64,000 nt of DNA from an uncultured Bacteroidales bacterium (GTDB lineage Bacteria > Bacteroidota > Bacteroidia > Bacteroidales > JAKIYJ01): assembly GCA_964504265.1 (NCBI GenBank), contig CAZDEU010000002.1, forward strand, positions 22,473 through 86,472, read 5' to 3'. Below the pieces are notes generated by a model. That model was not told the DNA's origin and did not search any database. It saw only the letters and a list, made by a program, of their open reading frames with translations. The position numbers and the translations under genes were made by a program. Below are positions 1-13,593 of this stretch, in pieces. The stretch's first letter is position 1. Each line of letters starts with the position of its first letter.

Positions 1-66
1 AACAATTGTTTGAATACGCAACTAAATTTGATGCTGAAAATTTAATTAAAAAATCATAAATATTTC

Positions 67-97
67 TTGTGTATCTTAATTATTATTATTACATTTA
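67..97 (+). promoter_or_regulatory. Bacteroidota-type promoter (-33 TTG, 20-nt spacer, -7 TAcaTTTA)
   Basis: TTG at 67-69 within cTTGtgta and TACATTTA at 90-97. The architecture and downstream GTAATTAAAAC match the copies at 2103, 3266, 6278, 9793, 10615 and 10888. Confidence 0.5.
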
Positions 98-149
98 TCG
101 TGTAATTAAAACTAAAAAATTGCATTACAATTAATAAAAATTAAAGAAA

Positions 150-356
150 ATGGAAACAGTTATTCAGAAACCAGTAGTTTGGAAGTTATTTGATAATTTC
201 AAAGCTTACACTGAAAGTAAACGTATTGCTAATAAAATAGCTAAGATTACTAGTAGTGAACCATCAGCATTATACTTTAGCAAAACTGGTAAGGAATTTG
301 CATGGGACTTTATAGTTCCAAGCGATAAGGTTACAGCAGTTAGAAGATTAAGGTAA
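150..356 (+). CDS. hypothetical protein (68 aa)
   Basis: ORF about 50 nt downstream of the promoter-like motif. No recognisable motifs. Confidence 0.5.
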   Translation: METVIQKPVVWKLFDNFKAYTESKRIANKIAKITSSEPSALYFSKTGKEFAWDFIVPSDKVTAVRRLR

Positions 357-361
357 TTAAA

Positions 362-454
362 TAGTTAATTGTTGTAGCTCAGACTTGTTTGAAACACAAA
401 GGATGCTACAAATTAAATCTGAGGTCTTAAAGACTATATACCGGAGATTAACTA
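362..454 (+). ncRNA. structured element (three-way junction), function unknown
   Basis: A 7-bp closing stem (AGTTAAT 362-368 / ATTAACT 448-454) encloses two hairpins, TTGTAGC...GCTACAA and AATCT...AGATT. It lies in a 300-nt ORF-free gap. Strand is assumed from context. Confidence 0.25.
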
Positions 455-465
455 TTTATTAAATG

Positions 466-534
466 AGGTCTATAAATCAGTAAGCGCGCCTGATATATTG
501 GTAAATATTGGTTCGATTCCAATTAGACTTTCCA
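466..534 (+). ncRNA. tRNA-like minihelix (acceptor-like stem + canonical T-arm + NCCA), not a canonical tRNA
   Basis: AGGTCTA (466-472) pairs with TAGACTT (524-530). The T-arm is ATTGG-TTCGATT-CCAAT (507-523), followed by T-CCA (531-534). Only about 65 nt lie between the ends, and no D arm or 7-nt anticodon loop can be drawn. Confidence 0.35.
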
Positions 535-591
535 GGCTGATTAACGAATGAGCTTCTTAGGATGAAACACGTGAAAGGCACAGTCACCGAT

Positions 592-637
592 AGCAAAGCG
601 GGCTACCAAAAGTTAAAATACTTTGCTTATTTTTATT
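592..637 (+). terminator. possible intrinsic terminator closing the RNA locus
   Basis: AGCAAAG (592-598) / CTTTGCT (621-627) stem followed by TATTTTTATT. The loop is large (22 nt). Confidence 0.4.
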
Positions 638-664
638 GAAATGATTAAATAACAAAATACTAAT

Positions 665-1096
665 ATGGAAAAATTACAAATTAATTGCCCTGCTGGTTAT
701 GAAATAGATACCGATAAATCAGATTTATCAAAAGGTATTGTATATTTTAAAGAAAGCAAAAAATATTTAAGTTATAATGATGTTGCTAAAGAACTATTTT
801 ATCATAATTATGAAAAAAATAATTCAACCACTAAAGAACAACTTGAATCAATACTGGCATTAAATATGTTATGCAACGTTGCTAAGCACTTGAATGGTGA
901 TTGGTTACCAAAAATTAATAGTTCCGGTAAACATAGAAATTATTGTATTTGTTTTACATCTAATAAATTTGTTATCGATGATTTTACATATGTTCAACAT
1001 AGTAATGTATATTTTAAGTCAAAAGAATTAGCACTTCAAGCAATTGAAATCCTAGGTGAAGAAACGATAATGAAAGCATTAACTTTAAATCACTAA
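665..1096 (+). CDS. hypothetical protein (143 aa)
   Basis: ORF in a tightly packed + strand block, with a 2-nt gap to the next ORF. Confidence 0.6.
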   Translation: MEKLQINCPAGYEIDTDKSDLSKGIVYFKESKKYLSYNDVAKELFYHNYEKNNSTTKEQLESILALNMLCNVAKHLNGDWLPKINSSGKHRNYCICFTSNKFVIDDFTYVQHSNVYFKSKELALQAIEILGEETIMKALTLNH

Positions 1097-1098
1097 TA

Positions 1099-1437
1099 AT
1101 GAAAAAGCAACAAGCTAAAAAACTATCAATTGTTAAATGGGAAGCAATTGTTAAAAATAACGGCAAAGAATTAAATTATAAACAGTTAACTGAGTTAGGG
1201 TTAACTAATTTATTTGCAGATTGTGGTTATTGTGAAAAGTATTTACATGATCTTGAAGACTCTAAAATATGCCGACATTGCCCATTGAATGCTAAGAAAT
1301 TAAATATTAAATATGATAAAGTATTTAATTATGGAGAAGCACATTGTTTATTTAACGATCACCCATATAATATTTGGCAAGAAAATCAAACAGTTGAAAA
1401 TGCAGAACGTATGTTAAACTTAATAATTAAATCTTAA
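1099..1437 (+). CDS. hypothetical Cys-rich protein (112 aa)
   Basis: The CGYCEKY ... CRHCP pattern (CxxC...CxxC) suggests a Zn-binding module. Confidence 0.6.
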   Translation: MKKQQAKKLSIVKWEAIVKNNGKELNYKQLTELGLTNLFADCGYCEKYLHDLEDSKICRHCPLNAKKLNIKYDKVFNYGEAHCLFNDHPYNIWQENQTVENAERMLNLIIKS

Positions 1438-1438
1438 T

Positions 1439-1639
1439 ATGAAAACATTAAAAGCATGCATAATAAGCTTAATAGCAATATTTATACTAGCATACATAAC
1501 CGGTTGCTTAGTAGAAACATCATTTAATGCAGCTACATGGCAATATTCTTTAAGAATGGGGTTATTTATAACTGCAGGAGCAATAATATTGTGTAGCTGG
1601 TTAGCAATTATATTAATTAACTATTTAGATCCAAGATAA
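1439..1639 (+). CDS. small membrane protein (66 aa, two hydrophobic segments)
   Basis: Translation shows LIAIFILAYITGCLV and LFITAGAIILCSWLAIILI. Confidence 0.6.
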   Translation: MKTLKACIISLIAIFILAYITGCLVETSFNAATWQYSLRMGLFITAGAIILCSWLAIILINYLDPR

Positions 1640-2046
1640 TGTGCAACCTAAAAACAAGATATAGAAAGCAAAAACAATTTGTAGGCTACAAAGTAGCTGT
1701 ACATGTAGATGGTAAATTCTATTCACCAGCAACCGGTATTGAATATAAAATTGGGAAGGTTGAAATTCCTAATGAAATTAACATGAAATATGCTACCGGT
1801 GCATTTGAAGATAATTTATTATGCCCGCGCCGGCCGTATTTTAATACTAATATGATTGGAAGAACTGCTGCTTTTGAATATATTGGTGATGCTAGGGGTT
1901 TATTTAATGATATCTTGCCGATGGATATGACTGATGATCTGAAAATTATACAAATCACTTTATCTAGAAGTCTTATGAAAGGCAACTATGATGGTGAAAA
2001 TGTTGTTGCCGGCAAATATATTGAGAGTATTAAAATAGTTCAGTAG
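1639..2046 (+). CDS. hypothetical protein (135 aa)
   Basis: Start overlaps the previous stop (TAATG). The antisense ORF 1719-1985 was judged spurious. Confidence 0.6.
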   Translation: MCNLKTRYRKQKQFVGYKVAVHVDGKFYSPATGIEYKIGKVEIPNEINMKYATGAFEDNLLCPRRPYFNTNMIGRTAAFEYIGDARGLFNDILPMDMTDDLKIIQITLSRSLMKGNYDGENVVAGKYIESIKIVQ

Positions 2047-2102
2047 TTTTATTTATAATTGATATAAATAAGATAATTAAGCAAAAATAATTGTTAAAAA
2101 GC

Positions 2103-2133
2103 TTGTGTACATAGAAATAGCTTACTATCTTTA
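2103..2133 (+). promoter_or_regulatory. Bacteroidota-type promoter (-33 TTG, 20-nt spacer, -7 TAtcTTTA)
   Basis: aaaaGCTTGTGTA ... TAGCTTACTATCTTTA. The upstream ATTGATATAAATAA..AATAAT..AAAAATAA block is shared with the copy at 10888. Confidence 0.6.
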
Positions 2134-2165
2134 TATCGTAATTAAAACAATAAAACTTGACAAAA

Positions 2166-3083
2166 ATGGCAACAACAATTAAATTAAACAAAATCGGTGA
2201 CTACCAAATGATCACCAAAAATTTCTCTCTCTGCAATACTGCTTTCACCTCAGCAAAAGTTAAAGTATCGATTGGTACAACTGAAACTGAAGTTACTCTT
2301 AAGTTAGAAGCTAATAACCACGTAGTTTGTGTTATTCCTGAACAAATTTCGAATGTAATATCCGGATTAGGATTTTCAACAGATTGGACTGATCTTAAAG
2401 CTGATTTCATTGATTTCATTCAAAATCGTGAACAACGTGAAAAGGAAGCAAAAGAAGCAAAACGTCGTGCTGAATATATTAATAGTCCAATGCATGGTTA
2501 TATTGAAACTCTTAAAGCAATTGCTGCTAAAGACGTTGTTATCAGGCCATCAATGACTTTAGAATATTTTTTGCAAAACACGTATAATAGAGAGTTTGAT
2601 ATTATTGTTGAATACAAAGGAGTTAGCGGATTTATTAAAAATAACAACAAAATTTATAAATCAGGGTCATGGCATGCTGAAAAGACTGATAGATGTTGGA
2701 TTGCTAATTTCAATTACAAAAATGTACGTTACAGCACTTTAGATAAAGCTTATAAAGCTTTAATTACAAAAATATCAGAAAAGATTGCTGCAGACGAAGC
2801 TAAATCCAAAGCTGAAATTGAAAAGAAACTTAAGTTACACAGCACTTTAGAACTTTTAAAATCTACCTTCCCTGAATTTGAATCAAAATCAGAAGAAAAA
2901 TGGTATTCATATGGTCATGGTAGTCATGCAACTGGACGTAGTTATACTGAATATACTATTAATAAATTGGTAATCTCAGTTAACAATCAACCAGAATCTG
3001 AAGTAACATTTAACTGCTTTGGGTTCAATAACTTAACTGCAGAAGAAGTTAAACAAATAATGAAAATCGGTTTAAAGAAATAA
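2166..3083 (+). CDS. hypothetical protein (305 aa from first ATG)
   Basis: The track ORF starts at TTG 2157. The first ATG is at 2166, about 30 nt after the -7 box. The middle is Lys/Glu-rich. Confidence 0.6.
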   Translation: MATTIKLNKIGDYQMITKNFSLCNTAFTSAKVKVSIGTTETEVTLKLEANNHVVCVIPEQISNVISGLGFSTDWTDLKADFIDFIQNREQREKEAKEAKRRAEYINSPMHGYIETLKAIAAKDVVIRPSMTLEYFLQNTYNREFDIIVEYKGVSGFIKNNNKIYKSGSWHAEKTDRCWIANFNYKNVRYSTLDKAYKALITKISEKIAADEAKSKAEIEKKLKLHSTLELLKSTFPEFESKSEEKWYSYGHGSHATGRSYTEYTINKLVISVNNQPESEVTFNCFGFNNLTAEEVKQIMKIGLKK

Positions 3084-3119
3084 CCTGCTTTTTACCTGTC
3101 AAGTTTAGGCAGGAGTTAG

Positions 3120-3156
3120 CCCAGTCGCTTGTTATAGTGGCTGGGTTATTTTGTTT
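3120..3156 (+). terminator. intrinsic terminator
   Basis: CCCAGTCGC (3120-3128) / GTGGCTGGG (3137-3145) form a 9-bp stem including G.T pairs, followed by TTATTTTGTTT. Confidence 0.6.
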
Positions 3157-3265
3157 ACGTTAACTACAATTAAATCTTATCTATGATAGTACATGTAAAT
3201 TCAAATATTCGAATGTCATGCGATTAACTATTTTTAAAATAATCGAAAAATAATTAGTGAAAAGC

Positions 3266-3296
3266 TTGTGTATTTAATATTAGCATACTATCTTTA
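3266..3296 (+). promoter_or_regulatory. Bacteroidota-type promoter (-33 TTG, 20-nt spacer, -7 TAtcTTTA)
   Basis: aaaaGCTTGTGTA ... TAGCATACTATCTTTA, 25 nt before ATG 3321. Confidence 0.6.
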
Positions 3297-3320
3297 GAGC
3301 ATAATTAAAATTTTAGCAAG

Positions 3321-3635
3321 ATGAAAACACAATTAGCATTACAGCCGGCAACACAGAGAAAAACATATTATGTATCTCTTTATAAAAATGAACCTACTTA
3401 TAAAAACAAGCAATTATTTTTTGCTTATTATGGCGAAGATTATCCTACAGAGCATGATGCGAAAATGGAAGCAATTAAAGATTTTTTAAGTAAACAGGGC
3501 GCCTGCGGTTTCTATAATACCGTAACATTGACAGAACATAATGGAATCCAATTGGCGGATGCAAACGAACCATATATGATGAAAAGTGCAATTGTTAAAA
3601 TACTTGCTGTAAAAAGAGTAAAATTATACCGCTAA
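3321..3635 (+). CDS. hypothetical protein (104 aa)
   Basis: ORF flanked by a promoter (3266) and a terminator (3657). Confidence 0.6.
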   Translation: MKTQLALQPATQRKTYYVSLYKNEPTYKNKQLFFAYYGEDYPTEHDAKMEAIKDFLSKQGACGFYNTVTLTEHNGIQLADANEPYMMKSAIVKILAVKRVKLYR

Positions 3636-3656
3636 ATTCTAGTGGAATTTATTTAA

Positions 3657-3687
3657 CCCTTGTATTAATTTACAGGGGTTTCTTTTT
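3657..3687 (+). terminator. intrinsic terminator
   Basis: CCCTTGT (3657-3663) / ACAGGGG (3672-3678) stem followed by TTTCTTTTT. Confidence 0.65.
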
Positions 3688-4231
3688 GACTATATATCAC
3701 ATAATTTTAAATATTCGAATGTCATTGAGTTAATATACTTACAGATGTTAAAATCCTATATAAGTATCATTATCATTAGAGCAACGAATATTAGTCTAGC
3801 CAGCGTTCTACTGTTTCAAGGAAATTTCCGCATACGTATACTTTTGGTATTTGAATTTCAAAATTACTATAAAAATAGTGATTCGCTAATATATTGATAT
3901 CCAGATCTTAAATGCAAGTTAGATAATTTTATAAATATTTCCGCAGCTACGAACTTTGATTTTATTGCAATTCCATCCAGCATAATACTATTCCTCTTTA
4001 ACATCTCCGGCGGTTGGAAAGATCATTGCTAATTAGCTTACACAAAGTAGACTACGATGATAGCTCGTTGCGGCATAATATGATTTGTATATTTAGTTAG
4101 CATTGTTAGCGTTCAACTGTTGGATGCCGCAGAAAAATAATTCGAGAAATTGTTATATAGTGCCTGTAATAACTAACAATGATTTCAATATACACGGCAA
4201 TCTGATTGGTCCGACTTGCAATCACTAAAAA

Positions 4232-4313
4232 ATAAAAAATCGAATTTACCTACTGTACGATTCGATGATTTCAATCGATTCGAAGGAATTTTCTGCCAGA
4301 TACAAAGTATATA
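4232..4313 (+). repeat. degenerate direct repeat A, copy 1
   Basis: ATAAAAAATCGA ... GATTCGAAGGAATTTTCTGCCAGATACA aligns with copy 2 about 305 nt downstream. Confidence 0.6.
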
Positions 4314-4538
4314 CAACGGCGCCAATTAGTTACAATGATTAGATTAGCTTATGTAATTATACAGCAGTTAGTACTGATCATGCACCAAAAATTTTAAAAA
4401 TCTTACCAAAGTTTGACAACTAAATTTTACTTGCCATGTACATCACGCAGAAATTTCTTTCGAATCGAACTTAAAGTAAAGCTTGAAGTAAAATCATGAT
4501 CATTATATATAGCTACTTAAGCTAATATTATTTTTTTT

Positions 4539-4607
4539 ATAAAAAATCGATGCAGCTACGAAATCACTTTTTCACTTGATTCGAAGGATTTTCATGCTAG
4601 TTATACA
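4539..4607 (+). repeat. degenerate direct repeat A, copy 2
   Basis: ATAAAAAATCGA ... GATTCGAAGGATTTTCATGCTAGTTATACA. A third, weaker copy lies around 3925-3990. Confidence 0.6.
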
Positions 4608-4826
4608 TTATCTTATTTAACTGCAAGTAGTTACACTGGCTATAAAATGATTTATCAATCAGTCCACGCGTACGATATGCTTAACGATGCTATCTAGAAA
4701 GGTAGGCCTAGGCATAAAGTGACAATTATCTTAAGAAAATCAATTCCCAGATAGTTACGTGCATAGCTACCCTTGTAACTATTTAATACTGGCCGCATAA
4801 GAAAATACCCTGAGATATACAGATAA

Positions 4827-4880
4827 GTCTAAAAATAATTCCTAGTAGAATGCTAGATTCTTTATGGCTTAAATGCTAAC
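4827..4880 (+). repeat. direct repeat B, copy 1
   Basis: GTCTAAAAATAATTCCTAGTAGAATGCTAGATTCTTTATGGCTTAAATGCTAAC. Confidence 0.65.
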
Positions 4881-4973
4881 TCCGTCTGTGTAATAATAAG
4901 TTACAAGGGCAATGAATAAGATAACTAGCAATTTAAGCTCTGCCTCTAAATCTATGCAGCAGCACAATTATAT

Positions 4974-5026
4974 GTCTAAAATATTTTCCTAGGAGAATGC
5001 TAGTTCTTTTATGGCATTAATGCAAC
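4974..5026 (+). repeat. direct repeat B, copy 2
   Basis: GTCTAAAATATTTTCCTAGGAGAATGCTAGTTCTTTTATGGCATTAATGCAAC. About 85% identical to copy 1, 147 nt downstream. Confidence 0.65.
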
Positions 5027-5393
5027 ATATATAAATATCTATACATAATAAGTGTATAGCAGTTATTATATACTAACATGCATGCAACTACTTATGTATT
5101 TAGCATTTCTGAAAAATAATGCTAATTAGATTAAGTATTTCATGGTAAGTTGATTCTTAATTTTCCGATACGTGATGCAGGAAAGCTAATTCAGTACTTA
5201 AGTACTGAAATTATAATCAACTATTAACCAATCGACTAATCAATTTCATAACGTATCGTCTAACATGCGGAGATATCTTTGTTGCCGGCATGCTAATGTA
5301 GATATGGAAGAACCTATACTGATATAAAATAATTGTTAAATAATTAGGAATCAACAAATATATTCACTACATTTATCCTTTAAATTAAATAAT

Positions 5394-5627
5394 ATGCATG
5401 AAATTTCAATGACTGAGTTATGTGAAGAACATAACAAATTAATTGATGAACATAATGCTTTAAAAGCAAACTATGAATCATTAGAAGGAAAATTTGATAG
5501 AATGACTAAATTAGCTGAAATGGCAACTGATATAGCTATTGCAAAAGAAACATATATTCAAGCCCAATCTAATGAAATAGCTAGATTACATGCATTATTA
5601 CGTTTAGCTAATATACATTACATATGA
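5394..5627 (+). CDS. hypothetical coiled-coil protein (77 aa)
   Basis: Heptad-like, Glu/Lys/Ala-rich translation. Confidence 0.55.
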   Translation: MHEISMTELCEEHNKLIDEHNALKANYESLEGKFDRMTKLAEMATDIAIAKETYIQAQSNEIARLHALLRLANIHYI

Positions 5628-5782
5628 TAACATTCATCATTAAACTAGTAATAGGTATAATAATAGCAGCTATAGCAGTAACGCTATTCTTATGGATAAT
5701 ATTACCAATAATCTGTATAATAATTTTTGCTTTCCTACTAATAGGATTAATATATTTAATCATTAAACTATTAACAAGATGA
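5624..5782 (+). CDS. small hydrophobic membrane peptide (52 aa, not in ORF track)
   Basis: ATGA overlap with the previous stop and ATGA-type overlap with the next start. Translation is MITFIIKLVIGIIIAAIAVTLFLWIILPIICIIIFAFLLIGLIYLIIKLLTR. Confidence 0.5.
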   Translation: MITFIIKLVIGIIIAAIAVTLFLWIILPIICIIIFAFLLIGLIYLIIKLLTR

Positions 5783-6021
5783 AAACAAAACAAACAAAAG
5801 CTACTATATCATCAGTAGCAGTAATACTATTAATAGTATCATACATAATGTCATATGTAGTATTTAATCCAATAACAGTACTTACATATACATTAATAGC
5901 ATTATCAGTATTAACTGTATTAGCAACATTATTTGTTATCTACATTATACTAATAGCAAGTTATGTTGATTTTACTGAAGCTGCTGATGAACAATTTGAA
6001 TATCCTAGTACTAAATTCTAA
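5779..6021 (+). CDS. membrane protein (80 aa, two TM segments)
   Basis: Hydrophobic translation. The antisense track ORF 5608-5793 is considered a mirror artefact. Confidence 0.6.
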   Translation: MKTKQTKATISSVAVILLIVSYIMSYVVFNPITVLTYTLIALSVLTVLATLFVIYIILIASYVDFTEAADEQFEYPSTKF

Positions 6022-6062
6022 ATACTTAAGTAACTACTTTTTAATTAATATCTTTTTATTAT

Positions 6063-6221
6063 ATGCAAAAACAAAGCGTTACACTGGCATTACTATTCAT
6101 AATATTTATAGCAGTAACAACTATATTACCAATTAAAAATACAATAGTAGATGCTGGATATATAGTATTTGCTATAGCAAGTTTATCTATTGTATTAGCA
6201 AACTGGAAATACATAAAATAA
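6063..6221 (+). CDS. small hydrophobic membrane peptide (52 aa, not in ORF track)
   Basis: MQKQSVTLALLFIIFIAVTTILPIKNTIVDAGYIVFAIASLSIVLANWKYIK. This is the third consecutive small membrane ORF. Confidence 0.45.
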   Translation: MQKQSVTLALLFIIFIAVTTILPIKNTIVDAGYIVFAIASLSIVLANWKYIK

Positions 6222-6277
6222 CAGTATTGCTAGCCTACTTCGCTAACAAAATTTATTTAAAATAAATCAGATTTCTC

Positions 6278-6308
6278 TTGGATTTCTGATAATAGCATAC
6301 TATCTTTA
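6278..6308 (+). promoter_or_regulatory. Bacteroidota-type promoter (-33 TTG, 20-nt spacer, -7 TAtcTTTA)
   Basis: cTTGgatttctgataatagcatacTATCTTTA. It lies inside the 45-nt block 6261-6305, which is repeated exactly at 10309-10353. Confidence 0.55.
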
Positions 6309-6331
6309 TGGCATAATTAAAAACAAAGATT

Positions 6332-6565
6332 ATGCAAGCAAATATCGAAAACTTCAAAGAAATGTTAAATAAAGCAAATGGTAATAAAGTAGAAATGCAA
6401 AAAGCATTTGACAGAATTACTTCTTATTTAGCTTCTTCTGTATTGGGTAGAGATTTTAACGAAACAGTTGAAAGTTATTTAAACAGAAAGCCAAATATTA
6501 AAGAAATACATGACTGGTCAAAGAAAGTAATAATAAGTCCAAATTTCACAATAATAGCAATATAA
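6332..6565 (+). CDS. hypothetical protein (77 aa)
   Basis: ORF 24 nt after the -7 box. Confidence 0.6.
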   Translation: MQANIENFKEMLNKANGNKVEMQKAFDRITSYLASSVLGRDFNETVESYLNRKPNIKEIHDWSKKVIISPNFTIIAI

Positions 6566-6768
6566 TGAAAAAGATAATTGACATACCAGAATATATAGTA
6601 AAAGACCTTAAAAAATTAGCGGTTGATGAAAATGTTGATTTAAAAAACTACATTCAAAACAAGCTAATAAAAATAGTCGAATTATCAAAAGTTAAATATT
6701 GTACTTGTGATAAAAATACAGATGGCAGCCAAAATAAAATATGTGATGGTGATTGTCTGTTTCATTAA
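6565..6768 (+). CDS. hypothetical protein with Cys-rich C-terminus (67 aa)
   Basis: Start overlaps the previous stop. The C-terminus reads CTCDKNTDGSQNKICDGDC. Confidence 0.6.
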   Translation: MKKIIDIPEYIVKDLKKLAVDENVDLKNYIQNKLIKIVELSKVKYCTCDKNTDGSQNKICDGDCLFH

Positions 6769-6774
6769 TATGAC

Positions 6775-6895
6775 TTATAACGGTGAGTATTGGCGTTGTT
6801 GCCATCATAGAACTTAATTAATAACACTAAAATATAAAATTATGGAAAACTTATCAGAAAATACGAAAGGCAATAACGCTAATACTGTGTTATCG
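6775..6895 (+). repeat. attC-like imperfect inverted repeat E0 (121 bp)
   Basis: R'' is TTATAAC (6775-6781) and R' is GTTATCG (6889-6895). Arms GAGTATTGGCG (6785-6795) and CGCTAATACT (6877-6886) pair over 10 bp including one G.T. Confidence 0.55.
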
Positions 6896-7042
6896 GCTGG
6901 CTATTCTTACAAAATAGGCAAATTTCAAATAATACTTGATGAAGATACTGAAGAATTGAAAATAATAGTACACACCAACAAAGATAGGATGACGATAAAA
7001 CCAAATACGGATAATAGTTGCACTCTTATAGCTTGCCGATAA
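6842..7042 (+). CDS. cassette ORF, hypothetical (66 aa; start uncertain)
   Basis: The ATG at 6842 lies in the apical loop of E0, and the ORF reads through the E0 R' box. The stop TAA (7040-7042) is embedded in the E1 R'' box. Confidence 0.4.
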   Translation: MENLSENTKGNNANTVLSAGYSYKIGKFQIILDEDTEELKIIVHTNKDRMTIKPNTDNSCTLIACR

Positions 7043-7164
7043 CGTTTTGCATAAGACCAGTAAAGGAATGCGAGATATGAACTATCAAGATAAACAACAG
7101 TTTGAACGGGCTGTAATGCTGAAATTACCGATACAACCTTTATTGGTTTTATGCGGTGTTACCG
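7037..7164 (+). repeat. attC-like imperfect inverted repeat E1 (128 bp)
   Basis: R'' is CGATAAC and R' is GTTACCG. Arms TTGCATAAGACCA (7046-7058) and TGGTTTTATGCGG (7144-7156) pair over 13 bp including 3 G.T. Confidence 0.6.
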
Positions 7165-7229
7165 CCCGTTTTTATTAATCTTTAAATCAATTTATTATAA
7201 GCAAAAAACTCGAAATATTAAAACAATCA

Positions 7230-7685
7230 TTGGCGAAAAAAGAACAGCAATTAAACGCCAAACTTGACCAACATTTTGCAACCGTAAAACAAGCAAACGG
7301 GCAACCGCTTAACGACAAAAGAAACGAACAAGCTACATTAAACAAGTGGGAGCGACAAAATGAAAGTATTAGAACAATGCAAAAAAGCATTGAAGCGACT
7401 AAACAGGCAATTGAAATTGAAGAAGGCAAAATAAGAGGAGTTGAACACGCTAATACTTTTATACCTGCTGAAATTCAAAAGCTGGTTGAAACTGGAGAAC
7501 TAATTCAATGGCGAAAACACCCACATACATTTTTTGTTGCTGGAGTTGATAAGGCTCGAATTGTTTGGGATGAAAAACGCAAAGTAGTTGCCCATAAGTT
7601 TGTCAGTGAAATAACTATTCAAGAACAGCGGGCAAAATTTGTCAGAATATACAATCCGCTGAACGCTCTTTTAAATGGGCGGTAA
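7230..7685 (+). CDS. cassette ORF, hypothetical protein (151 aa)
   Basis: Visibly more G+C-rich than the backbone (38% in 7231-7290). The stop TAA (7683-7685) lies inside the E2 R'' box CGGTAAC. Confidence 0.65.
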   Translation: MAKKEQQLNAKLDQHFATVKQANGQPLNDKRNEQATLNKWERQNESIRTMQKSIEATKQAIEIEEGKIRGVEHANTFIPAEIQKLVETGELIQWRKHPHTFFVAGVDKARIVWDEKRKVVAHKFVSEITIQEQRAKFVRIYNPLNALLNGR

Positions 7686-7812
7686 CGGCTGCGGCTAAAC
7701 TGCGTTGCCGATTAAAACGCAGAAACTTATCAAATTACAACAATGGACGAAAGAGATTATAAAGCTATGAATAAGCACGAAAACGGCAATGAAGTTTTAG
7801 CCGTTGTTAGCT
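7680..7812 (+). repeat. attC-like imperfect inverted repeat E2 (133 bp)
   Basis: R'' is CGGTAAC (7680-7686) and R' is GTTAGCT (7806-7812). Arms are CGGCTAAA (7692-7699) and TTTAGCCG (7796-7803). Confidence 0.5.
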
Positions 7813-8003
7813 GCTGGGCTGTATTATTACAATGGACGACAGGGTGTGAGGCGGATGCAGAATCAACGGAAGTAAAAGCTATATTTATGACTAAACAACA
7901 GGCTGATGAATATTGCAAAATACTAAAGCCTAAAATAAAATGGCATCAATATTATCAGGGCTGCTTAGAAGTTGAAGAAGTGCCTTTCGAGCCTTGCAGC
8001 TAA
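7743..8003 (+). CDS. cassette ORF, hypothetical (86 aa as tracked; in-frame ATG at 7887 would give 38 aa)
   Basis: The first 23 codons overlap the right arm and R' box of E2, so the true start may be downstream. The stop TAA (8001-8003) is embedded in the E3 R'' box. Confidence 0.45.
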   Translation: MDERDYKAMNKHENGNEVLAVVSCWAVLLQWTTGCEADAESTEVKAIFMTKQQADEYCKILKPKIKWHQYYQGCLEVEEVPFEPCS

Positions 8004-8126
8004 CGTTGACGGTAGCAGAAGTACGGGACTTAACCGAACAAAGCTATCCAGTAACAATGACCTTAATAAAATGCAGTACACTAACATAACCACTAACACC
8101 CGTATTACTGCTACCGTGTGTTAGGC
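7998..8126 (+). repeat. attC-like imperfect inverted repeat E3 (129 bp)
   Basis: R'' is AGCTAAC and R' is GTTAGGC. In the arms GACGGTAGCAGAAGTACGGG (8008-8027) and CCCGTATTACTGCTACCGTG (8099-8118), 17 of 20 positions are Watson-Crick, one is G.T and two are mismatched. Confidence 0.65.
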
Positions 8127-8139
8127 AACGTTTTTAATT

Positions 8140-8349
8140 ATGGAAGATTTAGTAAAAGCATTTCAGATTTTTTTAAAGTATTCGGATGATAAATATCCGA
8201 CACATTGTGAACATGATTATTTATACGTAAATGTTCATCCTGACAAAGTTTCTCAGGAAGATAAAGCAGAGTTAGAAAAACTTGGATTTATCATTGATGG
8301 TGAGTATGGAGGTGATGGTTTTGGCTCATTTAGGTTCGGTAGCTGTTAA
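8140..8349 (+). CDS. cassette ORF, hypothetical protein (69 aa)
   Basis: Starts 14 nt after the E3 R' box (..TTTTTAATTATG). Confidence 0.6.
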   Translation: MEDLVKAFQIFLKYSDDKYPTHCEHDYLYVNVHPDKVSQEDKAELEKLGFIIDGEYGGDGFGSFRFGSC

Positions 8350-8354
8350 ATGTT

Positions 8355-8488
8355 GCCTAACGGTACTGCGCTATAAAATCGTGCGGGATTTCGAAGCGCA
8401 AAATTATCAACCGAGTAGAAAATAACAATAGTAGTAAACCGCTTGCATACACTCTAAAACCCGCATGTTTTATGAGCGCATGTTAGGC
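8355..8488 (+). repeat. attC-like imperfect inverted repeat E4 (134 bp)
   Basis: R'' GCCTAAC matches RYYYAAC exactly and R' GTTAGGC matches GTTRRRY exactly. Arms TGCGCT/ATAAAA/CGTGCGGG pair with CCCGCATG/TTTTAT/AGCGCA, with bulges. Confidence 0.7.
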
Positions 8489-8504
8489 ACTGTACTTTTT
8501 AATT

Positions 8505-8804
8505 ATGAATAGAGTTGAAGAAATAAGAGAAATATTAAGAGAATTTGTTGAATATGATAAGGGTAAGCGTTTGAGACAAGAACTTAAAGACATAGCAGAT
8601 AAAACATATATTCAAAAATACTCTGATAAGGAGCAGATTGATTTTTTAGATAGACATGAAGCTTCAATAAGAAGTTTACATGCTCAATCAACAAATTTTC
8701 CGTATTATCTCGAAATGTTTACCGTTTTAACTCAACATATTTATGCTGATAATATTAGGCAAATTATTGATAAAGGAATAGATATTGAACGGGCACGGTC
8801 TTAG
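8505..8804 (+). CDS. cassette ORF, hypothetical protein (99 aa)
   Basis: Starts 17 nt after the E4 R' box. Confidence 0.6.
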   Translation: MNRVEEIREILREFVEYDKGKRLRQELKDIADKTYIQKYSDKEQIDFLDRHEASIRSLHAQSTNFPYYLEMFTVLTQHIYADNIRQIIDKGIDIERARS

Positions 8805-8810
8805 TATTGT

Positions 8811-8906
8811 GCCTAACGGCTGGCGGTATGGTTATATGTGCCTATCTACTGCCTGTCAATTTACCACAAACTTTTAAAGGCACATTAATTATACCGCTTG
8901 TTATAA
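8811..8906 (+). repeat. attC-like imperfect inverted repeat E5 (96 bp, short loop)
   Basis: R'' is GCCTAAC and R' is GTTATAA. Arms are GCGGTAT..ATGTGCCT (8823-8843) and AGGCACAT..ATACCGC (8878-8897). Confidence 0.6.
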
Positions 8907-8928
8907 GCTGTATTAAAAATTTTTAGCT

Positions 8929-9168
8929 ATGGATGCAGAAATTTTAAATTACCCAACAGAAACAGGTAAACCAAGAAACAATTCAAAACTTGCTTATGTA
9001 GATTGCTGCATGAGGCTTATGGACTGGCATAGACCATTTGAAGAAATGAGTAACGATGACTTAGATAGCTTATATTTTGTAGCTTTCAAAAGTTGGGCTT
9101 ATCATTTAACACGACAGGCTTATATTGATTACTTAAATAAATACAGGATAGAACGCTGTCCGTGTTAA
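8929..9168 (+). CDS. cassette ORF, hypothetical protein (79 aa)
   Basis: ORF between E5 and E6. Confidence 0.6.
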   Translation: MDAEILNYPTETGKPRNNSKLAYVDCCMRLMDWHRPFEEMSNDDLDSLYFVAFKSWAYHLTRQAYIDYLNKYRIERCPC

Positions 9169-9172
9169 TTGC

Positions 9173-9304
9173 GTATAACGCTATTGCGGTATGAAATGAA
9201 GCGGTGAACGGGCTGCTAATGTATCAACCGACACAGAATTACAAGCGAGTGATTAACTTGCAAAATGTACTTAACCCGCTTTGTTTTATGACCGCTTGTT
9301 AGCG
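9173..9304 (+). repeat. attC-like imperfect inverted repeat E6 (132 bp)
   Basis: R'' is GTATAAC and R' is GTTAGCG. Arms GCGGTATGAAATGAAGCGG and CCGCTTTGTTTTATGACCGC pair with G.T pairs. Confidence 0.65.
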
Positions 9305-9332
9305 GTAGTTATTAATTTAAAATCATTTAATT

Positions 9333-9560
9333 ATGAAAGAACTACTTATCAAATTAAAAATAGTGCAAGTCGTATCAAATGAGCAACGACATAAAGAAGG
9401 ATTGAAAAGATTAGGTAAAGGTTATTTTAAAGCTTATCGACTTAACCCATTCAATCCGCTGAGTTATATCCTTGTAGTAGTAACAATTCCAGTTTTATTA
9501 CTTATGTACGGTTTTGTTGGCTCATTTGAAAAGGCAATCAATCCGTTTCGGTGGGATTAA
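9333..9560 (+). CDS. cassette ORF, small membrane protein (75 aa)
   Basis: Hydrophobic segment LSYILVVVTIPVLLLMYGFVG. Lies between E6 and E7. Confidence 0.6.
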   Translation: MKELLIKLKIVQVVSNEQRHKEGLKRLGKGYFKAYRLNPFNPLSYILVVVTIPVLLLMYGFVGSFEKAINPFRWD

Positions 9561-9564
9561 TTAC

Positions 9565-9693
9565 CGCTAACGGTGAGCGTATGAAATCGAAAGGGATTAG
9601 AAAGCATATCACTATCCCACGATAAAACGTTTATAGAAATCACAGCACAACGCATACCACTGACCCCCTTTTGTTTTATACGCTGTGTTATAT
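9565..9693 (+). repeat. attC-like imperfect inverted repeat E7 (129 bp)
   Basis: R'' is CGCTAAC and R' is GTTATAT. Arms are GCGTATGAAATCGAAAGGG and CCCTTTTGTTTTATACGC. Confidence 0.65.
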
Positions 9694-9792
9694 GCTGCTT
9701 TTTAATTAGTTACAATCAAAGCACGGAGTGGGTGCGGAGTGCGGAGTGATAAAATATTTTCACTTTCATTGAAAAATAATTGATTTAAACTA

Positions 9793-9822
9793 TTGTTAAT
9801 TCAAAAATAAACCTTATCTTTA
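9793..9822 (+). promoter_or_regulatory. Bacteroidota-type promoter (-33 TTG, 19-nt spacer, -7 TAtcTTTA)
   Basis: TATTGTTAATTCAAAAATAAACCTTATCTTTATG, 24 nt before ATG 9846. Confidence 0.5.
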
Positions 9823-9845
9823 TGTCATAATTAATACTTACAATT

Positions 9846-10028
9846 ATGAATGCAACGATTGAAAAATTTCAGAAACAACAAATTGAAAAGGCTAATTTCA
9901 TTAAAGATAAAGCTCAGAAAGAAATTGAATCTTTAGAAGATGAGATATTAAGATTGAAAAAACAAATAAACGCTCAAAAATCGATAGTAAAACAGGCAAA
10001 TAAAGATATTCAACATTATTCAGAATGA
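9846..10028 (+). CDS. hypothetical coiled-coil protein (60 aa)
   Basis: Lys/Glu/Gln-rich, heptad-like translation. Confidence 0.55.
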   Translation: MNATIEKFQKQQIEKANFIKDKAQKEIESLEDEILRLKKQINAQKSIVKQANKDIQHYSE

Positions 10029-10183
10029 AAGGCGGCAAAAGAACAGGTGCAGGGAGAAAACCTTGCACCGATAAAAAACAGCAAATGACAATCTATGTTT
10101 TAACTTCTCAAATCGAAAAGTTAGGCAAAGATGCAATTCGTCAAGTATGCGAAAAAGCTATCAACGAAGCGGTTTTAAAGTAG
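10025..10183 (+). CDS. small basic protein (52 aa, not in ORF track)
   Basis: ATGA overlap with the upstream stop. Translation is MKGGKRTGAGRKPCTDKKQQMTIYVLTSQIEKLGKDAIRQVCEKAINEAVLK. The last base of the stop TAG (10181-10183) is the first base of GCATATAAC (10183-10191). Confidence 0.5.
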   Translation: MKGGKRTGAGRKPCTDKKQQMTIYVLTSQIEKLGKDAIRQVCEKAINEAVLK

Positions 10184-10184
10184 C

Positions 10185-10285
10185 ATATAACTATTATATA
10201 ATTGAATTCCTTTATAACTAATTGATTATAAATGAAAAAGGTATATCAACTTTAGGAAATTTTAAAAATATTCTTAAAGTTAGGA
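10185..10285 (+). repeat. possible degenerate attC-like element E8 (101 bp)
   Basis: GCATATAAC (10183-10191) is the exact complement of GTTATATGC (9687-9695, the E7 R' box). An R'-like GTTAGGA lies at 10279-10285 and the loop motif TATCAAC at 10244-10250. The arms are AT-rich and only weakly paired. Confidence 0.3.
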
Positions 10286-10308
10286 ATTATTCACATATAA
10301 CAATTCAA

Positions 10309-10353
10309 AATAAATCAGATTTCTCTTGGATTTCTGATAATAGCATACTATCT
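10309..10353 (+). repeat. exact 45-nt copy of 6261-6305 (promoter block)
   Basis: AATAAATCAGATTTCTCTTGGATTTCTGATAATAGCATACTATCT is identical in both places. Here the -7 box is degraded to TATCTAAT. Confidence 0.85.
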
Positions 10354-10498
10354 AATAGATGCTTTTTTAAACTTGAAGAAGCAATTCTTTATGCCATTGG
10401 TAGTAATGTTGGTAAACGTAATGACACTACTTTGTTAGTTCATATCGACACTTTTGTAACAATGATAACGAAAGACTAATTATTGTTGAGTAGCAATT

Positions 10499-10524
10499 AA
10501 ACCAGCGTAACTGCTGGTTTTTTA
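10499..10524 (+). terminator. intrinsic terminator
   Basis: AACCAGC (10500-10506) / GCTGGTT (10513-10519) stem followed by TTTTT. Confidence 0.65.
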
Positions 10525-10539
10525 ATGATCACTCCATGC

Positions 10540-10559
10540 AGCGATAAGCGCTTATCGCT
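10540..10559. repeat. perfect 20-bp palindrome AGCGATAAGC|GCTTATCGCT
   Basis: The same half-sites (AGCGATAA ... TTATCGCT) recur at 11590-11609. Confidence 0.7.
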
Positions 10560-10614
10560 CTTATTTAGATCAATTATAAATAATACTACAATTCAAAAAT
10601 ATCTTGCAAAAAGC

Positions 10615-10645
10615 TTGTATATACAAATAAAATATATTACTTTTA
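10615..10645 (+). promoter_or_regulatory. Bacteroidota-type promoter (-33 TTG, 20-nt spacer, -7 TActTTTA) with no obvious ORF downstream
   Basis: aaaaGCTTGTATATACAAATAAAATATATTACTTTTA. Confidence 0.45.
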
Positions 10646-10666
10646 TACTAGTAAACTTTAAATCAA

Positions 10667-10728
10667 GGTATTGGGCAGGTATGACTATATATCAAATTAT
10701 TTGGCTATATGCATGCCTAGCCAATACC
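10667..10728 (+). ncRNA. candidate small RNA hairpin downstream of orphan promoter
   Basis: GGTATTGGGCAGG (10667-10679) is complementary to CCTAGCCAATACC (10716-10728) at 11 of 13 positions. It begins about 20 nt after the -7 box. Confidence 0.3.
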
Positions 10729-10887
10729 ACTACATGCAGTTTAATACTATAAATGTAAGAATAATTTTGCACATACACAAATAAAATAACAATTATTTTT
10801 ACAGCAGTACTAGCTTAAGCTACATCACTACACTTATTTAGAATTGATATAAATAACAAAATAATCGAAAAATAAATCAATAAAAGC

Positions 10888-10918
10888 TTGTGTATCTGGA
10901 AATAGCTTACTATCTTTG
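10888..10918 (+). promoter_or_regulatory. Bacteroidota-type promoter (-33 TTG, 20-nt spacer, -7 TAtcTTTG, exact consensus)
   Basis: aaaaGCTTGTGTATCTGGAAATAGCTTACTATCTTTG, 20 nt before ATG 10939. Confidence 0.65.
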
Positions 10919-10938
10919 GACTATTAAAATTAAACAAA

Positions 10939-11145
10939 ATGACACACTTAACTTATATTAAAATAGATAAACATAGAGCAAAATATAATGATGTTCTACG
11001 TAAAGGATTAGCTAAATTAAATATATCAATTGATATCAAATCATCAAAATATGGTAAAAATATTTATGTAATTAATTCAGTTGATGTATTTAAAGCTCAA
11101 AAGTTTTTACTAAGCATATCTTTAACAAACCCGCAATATATTTAA
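10939..11145 (+). CDS. hypothetical protein (68 aa)
   Basis: ORF after the promoter. Confidence 0.6.
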   Translation: MTHLTYIKIDKHRAKYNDVLRKGLAKLNISIDIKSSKYGKNIYVINSVDVFKAQKFLLSISLTNPQYI

Positions 11146-11171
11146 TTATTAATCATATAAATCTAAACAAA

Positions 11172-11384
11172 ATGAAAGCAAATTTAACATTAGCAGCACA
11201 AGAAGGTAAACTAAACTACATTCTTAGCCAATTATATGCATTAACAACCGAAGAAAAGTGCTATATAGCTGATAACTTATGTGATGAATTGGAGATCGAA
11301 CTAAACGAAGTTATTAAGTTACCTAGCAAGATCTTAGTTGTTACTGATAATTTATCTTCACAATTCAAAGAAAACGGCAAATAA
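11172..11384 (+). CDS. hypothetical acidic protein (70 aa)
   Basis: Preceded by the leader CATATAAATCTAAACAAAATG, which is repeated before the next ORF. Confidence 0.6.
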   Translation: MKANLTLAAQEGKLNYILSQLYALTTEEKCYIADNLCDELEIELNEVIKLPSKILVVTDNLSSQFKENGK

Positions 11385-11411
11385 CGTATTAACCATATAA
11401 ATCTAAACAAA

Positions 11412-11573: not shown

Positions 11574-11579
11574 AATAAG

Positions 11580-12600: not shown

Positions 12601-12605
12601 TGAAA

Positions 12606-13588: not shown

Positions 13589-13593
13589 AAATC

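What the first reader, a model, noticed from the sequence alone, without database searches (positions are those of the whole stretch)
3690..5390. 1.7-kb ORF-free tract of decayed, roughly periodic repeats in a gene-dense phage
No ORF of 60 aa or more exists on either strand for 1.7 kb, although the rest of the window is more than 90% coding. The tract begins with a 17-nt exact copy (3709-3725, AAATATTCGAATGTCAT) of the sequence found upstream of the promoter at 3266 (3203-3219), but no promoter boxes follow. It contains a repeat family with about 305-nt periodicity (about 3925, 4232-4313, 4539-4607), which shares TTTATAAAAAATCGA..GCAGCTACGAA..GATTCGAAGGA..TTTTC.TGC.AG.TATACA. It also contains a 53-nt repeat pair (4827-4880 and 4974-5026, about 85% identity). 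Many (C)CGCA(G/T) motifs occur about every 100-130 nt. I found no tRNA-like T-arms here. The candidates are an array of non-coding RNA genes, a replication or packaging-related iteron field, or the decayed remains of duplicated promoter-leader cassettes.
Basis: seen in the sequence. Interest (0 to 1): 0.6.

Follow-up and report, generated by a model that had tools for sequence, protein, structure and literature searches.

The report
Non-coding spacer in phage early region
A 1.76-kb stretch with no genes in the early-gene arm of an uncultured large phage is real and truly non-coding, but it is mostly unique sequence with a few local duplications and one 194-base inverted-repeat element, and nothing found here shows that it has a function.

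Summary
The ORF-free tract is real: window 3636-5393 (1758 nt) is the longest gap without an ORF of 60 aa or more in the five largest contigs of the assembly. Four tests say it is non-coding, not decayed or recoded genes.

The "periodic repeat family" is overstated. Only three repeat relations beat shuffles: 4232-4337/4539-4638, an inverted partial copy at 4442-4468, and 4823-4876/4970-5023. The copy near 3925 and the CGCA spacing do not hold.

Layout: terminator 3655-3680; a 61-nt promoter-less copy of the neighbouring intergenic module, including the exact 17-mer; about 1.58 kb of unique DNA; then the leader of ORF 5394.

I found no Rfam family, tRNA, recognisable promoter, tandem iterons, DnaA boxes or unusual AT-rich core. 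The only structure signal is a 194-nt inverted-repeat element, 4275-4468 (+ strand RNA fold z -4.9).

No relative turned up in any collection, so conservation is untestable.

Best reading (0.45): a lineage-specific spacer left by recombination in a hyperplastic early region. Rivals are a + strand structured RNA or a cis-acting DNA site. Earlier scan notes on this genome supplied the PeSL lead.

The parts
3321..3635 (+). Upstream early ORF (104 aa) with no family assignment, driven by the cassette promoter at 3266
   Evidence: no PHROG hit; Pfam hits all below cut-off; promoter
3655..3680 (+). Intrinsic-terminator-like hairpin plus T-run that closes the upstream unit
   Evidence: 10-pair stem, 4 G-C pairs, tail TCTTTTTGAC
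3681..3741 (+). Promoter-less partial copy of the intergenic module 3175-3236; includes the exact 17-mer at 3709-3725
   Evidence: D2; score 22, 0 of 200 shuffles; no promoter boxes follow
3742..5325 (.). Unique non-coding interior (GC 0.31)
   Evidence: No coding signal. No match elsewhere in the assembly, in phage records or in 400 other genomes of the phylum
4120..4145 (-). Weak fourth copy of the arm motif, reverse orientation
   Evidence: I7: 26 nt, 73% complementary to 4280-4305; D8: 78% to 4446-4463; not significant against shuffles (36 of 300)
4232..4337 (+). Direct repeat copy U2
   Evidence: score 27 vs 4539-4638, 0 of 300 shuffles
4275..4468 (.). 194-nt inverted-repeat element with arms 4275-4301 and 4442-4468 (by my count from the sequence: 23 Watson-Crick pairs and 1 G-T of 27)
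   Evidence: I1, 85% complementary.: + strand RNA -55 kcal/mol, z -4.86, 0 of 200 shuffles.: - strand z -2.62
4335..4382 (+). Inner hairpin of the element; its 15-bp stem has 3 G-U pairs, so it forms only on the + strand
   Evidence: Structure; 120-nt window at 4320 gives z -3.0 (+) against -0.5 (-)
4539..4638 (+). Direct repeat copy U3
4823..4876 (+). Direct repeat R1 (54 nt)
   Evidence: D1; score 32, 0 of 300 shuffles
4970..5023 (+). Direct repeat R2 (80% identical to R1)
5190..5209 (.). Perfect 20-nt palindrome (8-bp stem, 4-nt loop), with no convincing T-run on either strand
5326..5393 (+). Leader of ORF 5394; weakly resembles the early promoter cassette
   Evidence: 68.6% over 70 nt to the cassette at 2084-2152, E 0.009; D5, 87% of 23 nt; not significant with the cassette profile (E 37)
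5394..5627 (+). Downstream early ORF (77 aa) with a positive coding score
   Evidence: 0.325 per codon; no family; no relatives

Best explanation
The tract is a lineage-specific, non-coding spacer in the hyperplastic early-gene arm of an uncultured large myovirus. It lies between the terminator of one early transcription unit (3655-3680) and the leader of the next gene (ORF 5394).

Its left edge is a promoter-less half copy of the neighbouring terminator/promoter cassette. Its 1.58-kb interior is unique DNA that has undergone a few local duplications and one inversion-duplication. These give the 4232/4539 repeat pair, the 194-nt inverted-repeat element at 4275-4468, and the 4823/4970 pair.

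I infer, but have not shown, two steps. First, the tract arose by recombination at a cassette, of the kind proposed for PeSL elements of T4-type phages, which captured or stranded non-coding DNA. Second, it is carried as largely dispensable filler and is transcribed at most by read-through. The inverted-repeat element is the only part that looks as if it could work, either as an RNA hairpin or as a DNA site.
For: SHOWN.
- It is non-coding by four tests. It is not open under TAG=Q or code 4. Six-frame read-through with X at stops gives only 2 PHROG hits, both at E 0.2. The best-frame Markov coding score is -8 to -16.5 per 120 nt in the tract against about -7 to +11 in neighbouring genes. Period-3 power is 0.12-1.57, compared with a shuffle mean of 0.64 and mostly 1.5-6 in genes. 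All 9 of 9 internal ORFs of 30 aa or more score negative, whereas 11 of 13 neighbouring small ORFs score positive.
- The edges are as described: a terminator, then the 61-nt cassette copy without promoter boxes.
- The region is a cassette-rich ORFan arm. The promoter cassette occurs 5 times in the window (nhmmer E 1e-8 to 9e-20). The 308-aa neighbour found only itself among 5.8 billion proteins. The flanking ORFs have no relatives.
- No promoter of three classes lies inside the tract: the cassette profile; TTG-N17-22-TAnnTTT[GA], with one loose match at 4068-4095 whose spacer is 3 nt shorter than in the cassettes; and the motif found upstream of minus-strand genes, with a best score of 9.4 against 14-20 for 8 of its 9 training sites.
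- A second ORF-poor spacer (11575-12536) sits in the same kind of position, so this arm tolerates non-coding DNA.

FROM THE LITERATURE (passages read). Degraded 'half' PeSLs lie next to indels in the hyperplastic regions of T4-type phages (PMC4122927).
Against: - Phage genomes are compact, and 1.76 kb of filler is unusual.
- The tract's GC (0.314) is above short intergenic DNA (0.262) and far above four-fold sites (0.114). It is therefore not old neutral DNA at mutational equilibrium.
- The core 4100-4800 folds better than shuffles on the + strand (z -3.2 to -4.3 in 400-nt windows, against -0.4 to -2.2 on the - strand). The inner hairpin depends on G-U pairs.
- TCGA-containing words are concentrated here. 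11 of the contig's 93 TCGA sites lie in the tract, which is the densest 1.65-kb window, although TCGA is depleted in the contig overall (observed/expected 0.41).
- The tract persists. Two sister runs of the same study hold 0.85-0.89 of the sampled words of 2000-7000, too many for the tract to be missing. One run of another study has a 167-nt contig at 5159-5325 with 0 differences, while its contigs on the genes at 5705-6334 differ at 16 of 550 positions. Those contigs may come from different strains.
- I could not show the donor DNA, the recombination event or dispensability.
Confidence: 0.45

Rival explanations
1. The core of the tract (about 4100-4800) encodes one or more + strand structured RNAs. 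The centre would be the 194-nt long hairpin at 4275-4468, expressed by read-through of the 3655-3680 terminator or from a promoter type I could not define. This would parallel the abundant long non-coding early transcripts of another Bacteroidota phage.
For: - The + strand fold of 4250-4485 is -55 kcal/mol, z -4.86, with 0 of 200 shuffles as stable; the - strand gives z -2.62.
- 400-nt windows from 4100 to 4800 give z -3.2 to -4.3 on the + strand.
- The inner hairpin 4335-4382 has 3 G-U pairs.
- GC is above the intergenic baseline.
- Precedent: two long intergenic regions of Cellulophaga phage phi14:2 are transcribed above most genes, function unknown (bioRxiv 10.1101/2020.03.07.982082, passages read).
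Against: - No promoter was recognised and no + strand terminator follows.
- Rfam gave nothing.
- Inverted repeats lower the fold energy whether or not an RNA is made.
- The two flanking putative units do not fold better than shuffles (z 0.05 and -0.64).
- GC 0.32 is far from the GC-rich islands typical of structured RNAs in AT-rich genomes (own knowledge).
- No covariation test is possible because there are no relatives.
Confidence: 0.25
2. The tract is a cis-acting DNA region bound by phage or host proteins. Candidates are a replication origin, a packaging or terminal-repeat boundary, or a DNA-entry control region like the 1662-bp non-coding iss region of phage T5. The TTCGAA/GATTCGA palindromes and the alternating arm copies would be the binding sites.
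For: - ATTCGA/TCGAAT occurs 8 times in the tract, against 6 in the other roughly 12.6 kb of the early arm (positions listed).
- CGATTCGA or its reverse complement occurs 3 times in the contig, all in the tract.
- Four arm-like copies alternate in orientation at about 140-160 nt spacing: 4120-4145 (-), 4275-4301 (+), 4442-4468 (-), 4578-4608 (+) (I1, I2, I7).
- Its size and its position at the end of a block of small early genes resemble the T5 iss region (bioRxiv 10.1101/866236, passages read).
Against: - There is no tandem iteron array, and 0 of the 18 DnaA-box matches in the window fall in the tract.
- There is no exceptional AT-rich core and no A-tract phasing (72nd percentile).
- The cumulative GC skew shows only a small local dip rather than a switch.
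- No DNA-binding or initiator gene was recognised nearby.
- Only three repeat relations are significant.
- This is a contractile-tailed phage (tail sheath gene); two-step entry is known to me only from T5-like siphoviruses (own knowledge).
- Physical genome ends could not be examined.
Confidence: 0.17
3. The tract holds real but very small genes (30-50 aa), or the recent remains of genes.
For: Neighbouring early genes are tiny (52-80 aa). A 50-aa ATG ORF lies at 3745-3897.
Against: - 9 of 9 internal ORFs of 30 aa or more have negative coding scores.
- There is no period-3 signal.
- Read-through translation gives only 2 PHROG hits, both at E 0.2, and the 50-aa ORF has no Pfam hit.
- The 104-aa neighbour leaves no tblastn trace in the tract at E up to 10.
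Confidence: 0.08

Closest known systems
PeSL (promoter-early stem-loop) cassettes and their degraded 'half' forms in hyperplastic regions of T4-type phages (Arbiol et al. 2010, PMC2839356, search listing only; Comeau et al. 2014, PMC4122927, passages read)
   Same: A repeated terminator/promoter/start-codon cassette punctuates an arm of small ORFan early genes (5 copies). A partial copy without its promoter sits at the edge of an anomalous segment.
   Different: The promoter is of the TTG...TAnnTTT[GA] type rather than sigma-70 type (reading this as Bacteroidota-like is my own knowledge). What lies beside the half cassette is 1.58 kb of non-coding DNA, not a swapped ORF. No close relative exists to show an indel.
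The 1662-bp non-coding iss region in the left terminal repeat of phage T5 (Davison, bioRxiv 10.1101/866236, passages read)
   Same: [quoted passage not shown]
   Different: T5 has a dense, conserved set of repeats and about 8 paired DnaA boxes. Here there are only three significant repeat relations and no DnaA box. This phage has a contractile tail. A terminal repeat could not be tested.
Long non-coding early transcripts of Cellulophaga phage phi14:2, at the g004-g005 and g005-g006 intergenic regions (bioRxiv 10.1101/2020.03.07.982082, passages read)
   Same: A long intergenic tract among early genes, on the gene strand, in a phage of a low-GC, probably Bacteroidota-type host.
   Different: No sequence similarity to any phage record. 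No transcription data exist here. The phage type is different (crAss-like podovirus there, myovirus here).
MITE-like inverted-repeat elements
   Same: The 194-nt element has 27-nt imperfect terminal inverted repeats (I1).
   Different: It is single-copy. No other copy was found in the assembly, in 400 other genomes of the phylum, or with the arm pattern in viral or genome collections. I saw no target-site duplication in the sequence.

Membership tests
PeSL-type terminator/promoter cassette (the tract's edges) | Stem-loop or terminator placed just upstream of a conserved early promoter | tested here: not met
   The terminator (3655-3680) and the 61-nt upstream module are present, but the promoter boxes are absent. 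At best this is a 'half' cassette.
PeSL-type terminator/promoter cassette (the tract's edges) | The same cassette repeated several times in a variable early region | tested here: met
   Five copies in the window, at 2062, 3228, 6237, 10303 and 10846 (nhmmer E 1e-8 to 9e-20).
PeSL-type terminator/promoter cassette (the tract's edges) | Association with insertions, deletions or replacements between close relatives | not testable with these tools
   No relative was found.
Known RNA families / tRNA array | A match to a curated covariance model or a tRNA fold | tested here: not met
   Rfam at gathering thresholds gave 0 matches in the window. The best match in 3000-6000 had E 6. ARAGORN found 0 tRNAs in the window. 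A relaxed run gave only one implausible tmRNA call and one tRNA-Stop call.
Iteron-type replication origin | Three or more regularly spaced direct repeats of about 17-22 bp | tested here: not met
   Tandem Repeats Finder gave only three arrays of about 2 copies with 7-12 nt units in the tract. The repeats that exist are single pairs.
Iteron-type replication origin | DnaA boxes and/or an exceptional AT-rich unwinding element | tested here: not met
   0 of the 18 matches in the window (one mismatch or fewer) fall in the tract. The minimum 60-nt GC of 0.15 is matched or beaten by 3.4% of the contig's 60-mers.
Iteron-type replication origin | An adjacent initiator gene | tested here: inconclusive
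   The flanking ORFs have no family above cut-off. An ORFan could still be an initiator.
T5 iss-type non-coding region | A non-coding tract of about 1.7 kb after the first early genes | tested here: met
   1758 nt without an ORF of 60 aa or more.
T5 iss-type non-coding region | Paired DnaA boxes inside large inverted repeats | tested here: not met
T5 iss-type non-coding region | Location in a long terminal repeat, conserved among relatives | not testable with these tools
   No raw reads from the source sample were laid, and no relatives are available.
MITE | Terminal inverted repeats | tested here: met
   27-nt arms, 85% complementary (I1).
MITE | Multiple dispersed copies | tested here: not met
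Pseudogene remnants | Residual coding signal or homology | tested here: not met

The most novel reading that the evidence does not exclude
The core of the tract (about 4100-4800) is a gene for a new, lineage-specific + strand structured RNA built around the 194-nt hairpin at 4275-4468. Alternatively, the same element is a cis-acting DNA site that governs entry, replication or packaging in a contractile-tailed phage, a counterpart of the T5 iss region. Either way, the ORF-free spacers of this early arm would be functional loci rather than debris.
Probability: 0.2. Interest if true: 0.55.

Novelty: new member of a known kind. Interest (0 to 1): 0.25.

Why it matters
Long gene-free stretches are rare in phages. 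In the few cases that have been studied they proved important: the T5 injection-stop region, and the abundant non-coding early RNAs of phi14:2. Here the evidence points mostly to a by-product of cassette-mediated shuffling in an ORFan-rich early arm. If that is right, it is an ordinary though large example of how such regions accumulate non-coding DNA. It would matter more if the 194-nt inverted-repeat core proved to be transcribed or bound, because the phage has no known relatives and the element matches no described family.

Tried and rejected
- Alternative genetic codes (TAG=Q, code 4) do not open the tract.
- Six-frame read-through against PHROGs gave 2 hits at E 0.2 and nothing better.
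- Rfam gave nothing at E-value or gathering thresholds. ARAGORN gave nothing credible at normal or relaxed settings.
- Decayed tRNA array: I inspected the four TTCGAA sites in the tract by eye in the sequence. None has a T-arm stem.
- T4-type late promoter TATAAATA: it precedes only 2 of 90 genes, so it is not this phage's late signal.
- A PWM of the minus-strand-gene upstream motif gave no hit of 10 or more in the tract.
- A profile of the early cassette gave no hit in the tract interior.
- attC-like sites of the neighbouring array share no similarity with the tract.
- Host CRISPR repeats as a source of solitary repeats: a naive scan found no array in the assembly.
- The second ORF-poor gap (11575-12536) shares no significant similarity with the tract (best E 0.014 for 24 nt).
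- Searches for relatives all failed:
  - Phage records by blastn: none.
  - Viral contigs with three flanking proteins: none. Tail sheath: one 38%-identical fragment.
  - Viral contigs with four DNA patterns: one hit with no DNA or protein similarity to the assembly, otherwise zero.
  - Metagenome contigs: none with the 77-aa protein. One pattern match lies inside a long ORF of a 42% GC locus with no blastn match to C2.
  - Genome contigs: zero with the arm pattern. One unrelated 35% match over 49 residues with the NAMPT-like protein.
  - 40 related genomes and 400 other genomes of the phylum: only matches of 27-54 nt.
- Sequencing runs: no RNA holder is listed for 2000-7000. Contigs from four runs of other studies cover mainly 5575-7000. 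On the tract they give one 167-nt piece (5159-5325) plus short, low-likeness pieces. The parts without cover say nothing. One joint (2084 to 6627; one contig, 21-nt side) is too weak to use.
- My first sliding-window folding script timed out; I re-ran it with a corrected shuffle routine.
- ATGCTAGTT occurs 4 times in the window, 3 of them in ORF-free gaps on the + strand. This is too few to interpret.
Full report
CONTEXT. The window is G000:C2:22473-86472, part of an 89-kb, 28.5% GC contig in a 3.2-Mb, 353-contig assembly. The contig is a large contractile-tailed phage. It carries a tail sheath (45% identical to that of Microcystis phage Mel-JY01), a baseplate hub, a clamp loader, a UvsX-like recombinase, DnaB- and Dda-like helicases, a ribonucleotide reductase and GroEL. 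It also has an array of 11 tRNA genes about 6.6-9.4 kb upstream of the window's first base. Window 1-14300 is a + strand arm of small genes with no family assignment. The rest of the window is transcribed on the - strand.

THE OBSERVATION. No ORF of 60 aa or more exists on either strand from 3636 to 5393 (1758 nt). This is the longest such gap in the five largest contigs; the next longest is 1215 nt, also in this early arm. ORFs of 60 aa or more cover 86.8% of the window, or 89.3% without the tract. The exact 17-mer copy is real and is part of a 61-nt similarity, 3681-3741 against 3175-3236 (score 22; 0 of 200 shuffles reach it). The 54-nt pair 4823-4876/4970-5023 is real and 80% identical.

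The "305-nt periodic family" shrinks to one significant direct pair, 4232-4337/4539-4638 (score 27; 0 of 300 shuffles), and one inverted partial copy at 4442-4468 (score 19; 0 of 300). The copy near 3925 is not significant (15 of 300). Of the 10 pairs among five consecutive 220-350 nt units, only one beats the shuffles. The CGCA motif is neither regularly spaced nor significantly enriched after correction.

IS IT CODING? No.
- It does not open under TAG=Q or code 4.
- Reading all six frames through with X at stops gives only 2 PHROG hits, both at E 0.2.
- A 3-periodic Markov model trained on the contig's 57 long ORFs scores the tract at -8 to -16.5 per 120 nt in the best frame of either strand. 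That is the level of known intergenic DNA. Neighbouring genes range from about -7 to +11.
- Period-3 Fourier power is 0.12-1.57 in the tract. The shuffle mean is 0.64, and genes mostly give 1.5-6.
- All 9 internal ORFs of 30 aa or more score negative, against 11 of 13 positive for neighbouring small ORFs.
- The upstream 104-aa gene leaves no trace in the tract.
The tract is therefore neither a set of tiny genes nor recently decayed genes.

ANATOMY. The upstream unit ends in a terminator-like hairpin at 3655-3680. Next comes the 61-nt copy of the module that, 506 nt upstream, precedes the promoter at 3266; in the tract no promoter boxes follow it.

That promoter belongs to a cassette (GCTTGTGTA...TAGC.TACTATCTTTA...ATTAAAA...ATG) present five times in the window, at 2062, 3228, 6237, 10303 and 10846 (nhmmer E 1e-8 to 9e-20). 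The cassette profile finds nothing inside the tract. Its TTG-N20-TAnnTTT[GA] layout resembles the promoter consensus reported for Bacteroidota (my own knowledge, not tested here).

The right edge, 5326-5393, which leads ORF 5394, resembles the cassette only weakly: blastn E 0.009 over 70 nt, 20 of 23 nt in one block, nhmmer E 37. Between the edges lie 1.58 kb that match nothing else in the assembly.

SIGNALS INSIDE THE TRACT.
- Promoters. I found none of three classes: the cassette profile; the generic TTG...TAnnTTT[GA] pattern, with one loose match at 4068-4095 whose spacer is 3 nt shorter than in the cassettes; and a motif I derived from upstream regions of minus-strand genes, TT(G/A)ACATA(C/T)(A/T)TAT, with a best tract score of 9.4 against 14-20 for 8 of its 9 training sites.
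- Known RNAs. There is no Rfam family and no tRNA.
- Origin features. Tandem Repeats Finder gave only three small arrays of about 2 copies with 7-12 nt units. There are no DnaA boxes, no exceptional AT-rich core and no A-tract phasing. The cumulative GC skew shows only a small local dip.
- RNA folding. Folding is unremarkable outside 4100-4800 (z between +1.6 and -2 in 120- and 400-nt windows). Inside 4100-4800 the + strand folds better than shuffles (z -3.2 to -4.3), whereas the - strand gives -0.4 to -2.2.
- The inverted-repeat element. The fold signal comes from a 194-nt element at 4275-4468. Its 27-nt arms are 85% complementary (I1). Its + strand fold is -55 kcal/mol with z -4.86 (0 of 200 shuffles), against z -2.62 on the - strand. 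The strand asymmetry comes largely from G-U pairs in an inner hairpin, 4335-4382. Further arm-like copies at 4120-4145 (-) and 4578-4608 (+) give an alternating pattern (I2, I7), but the putative flanking units do not fold better than chance (z 0.05 and -0.64).
- Word composition. TCGA words are concentrated here: 11 of the contig's 93, the densest 1.65-kb window, in a contig where TCGA is depleted (observed/expected 0.41). Part of this reflects the generally higher CpG content of the early arm (0.79-0.99, against 0.57 in the late region; 1.14 in the tract), and part reflects the repeated arms.
- GC content. The tract's GC is 0.314. Short intergenic DNA has 0.262, the second gap 0.271, and four-fold sites 0.114.

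RELATIVES. None. The tract has no blastn match in 50,697 phage records. In the 40 related genomes and the 400 other genomes of the phylum searched, it gives only matches of 27-54 nt. Patterns from its repeats found nothing in the viral or genome collections. In metagenome contigs one pattern found a single match, inside a long ORF of a 42% GC locus with no blastn match to C2. The flanking ORFs have no relatives, and the 308-aa neighbour found only itself among 5.8 billion proteins. Conservation and covariation therefore cannot be tested.

Run data give only hints. Two sister runs of the probable source study hold 0.85-0.89 of the sampled words of 2000-7000, so they must contain most of the tract. 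One run from another study has a 167-nt contig at 5159-5325 with no differences, while its contigs on the genes at 5705-6334 differ at 16 of 550 positions. These may come from different strains. No RNA holder is listed.

INTERPRETATION. The best-supported reading (0.45) is that this is a non-coding spacer produced by the recombinational turnover typical of such early arms. It is bounded by a terminator plus a promoter-less half cassette on one side and by the next gene's leader on the other. It lies in an arm full of repeated cassettes and ORFans, next to an array that earlier notes of this scan read as integron-like cassettes. A second ORF-poor spacer sits in the same kind of position.

This matches the description of degraded "half" PeSLs beside indels in the hyperplastic regions of T4-type phages (PMC4122927, passages read; the lead came from earlier notes on this genome). 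The capture event and dispensability are inferred, not shown.

Against it stand the size of the tract, its GC above the intergenic baseline, its persistence across samples, and the + strand fold of the core. Those points keep two rivals alive. One is a + strand structured RNA around 4275-4468 (0.25); the precedent is the long non-coding early RNAs of phi14:2 (bioRxiv 10.1101/2020.03.07.982082, passages read). The other is a cis-acting DNA site (0.17); the closest anatomical analogue is the 1662-bp non-coding iss region of T5 (bioRxiv 10.1101/866236, passages read), whose defining DnaA boxes are absent here. Small or decayed genes are unlikely (0.08).

VERDICT. The tract is real but probably ordinary. 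Interest is low to moderate. The one element worth an experiment is the 194-nt inverted repeat.

Noticed in passing
window 11575-12536: A second ORF-poor spacer (the gap without an ORF of 60 aa or more is 1215 nt), again lying just upstream of a gene start (ORF at 12600). It contains a full TTTG-N21-TAnnTTTG promoter-like match at 12219-12251 that no ORF of 60 aa or more follows. It may be a small non-coding transcription unit.
   Followed up: partly
window 2062-2159, 3228-3320, 6237-6334, 10303-10353, 10846-10940: A five-copy early promoter cassette (GCTTGTGTA...TAGC.TACTATCTTTA...ATTAAAA...ATG). One copy, 10303-10353, is 98% identical to 6255-6305. This is a PeSL-like design with a TTG/TAnnTTT[GA]-type promoter.
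   Followed up: partly
window, upstream of minus-strand genes (sites at 25557, 35363, 38904, 39480, 48039, 60574, 61147): A conserved motif, TT(G/A)ACATA(C/T)(A/T)TAT, lies about 20-45 nt before the start codons of at least seven minus-strand genes. It is a candidate middle or late promoter of this phage. The T4 late motif TATAAATA is not used (it precedes 2 of 90 genes).
   Followed up: partly
window 6778-6892: This roughly 110-nt stretch at the head of the neighbouring cassette array is held, at 80-97% identity, by many separate contigs in four runs from four other studies. It runs into unlike DNA on both sides, as expected of a mobile or recombination site.
   Followed up: no
G000:C2:13119-15862 (upstream of the window): An array of 11 tRNA genes. 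One of them is called by ARAGORN with a two-base anticodon ('tRNA-???').
   Followed up: no
whole contig C2: CpG observed/expected is 0.57 in the late minus-strand region but 0.8-1.0 in the early arm. TCGA observed/expected is 0.41 for the contig. The two arms seem to have different mutational or selective histories.
   Followed up: partly
window 27348-28559 (-): A 403-aa gene matches a PHROG transposase family (phrog_506, E 4.5e-50) inside the replication-gene block of the phage.
   Followed up: no
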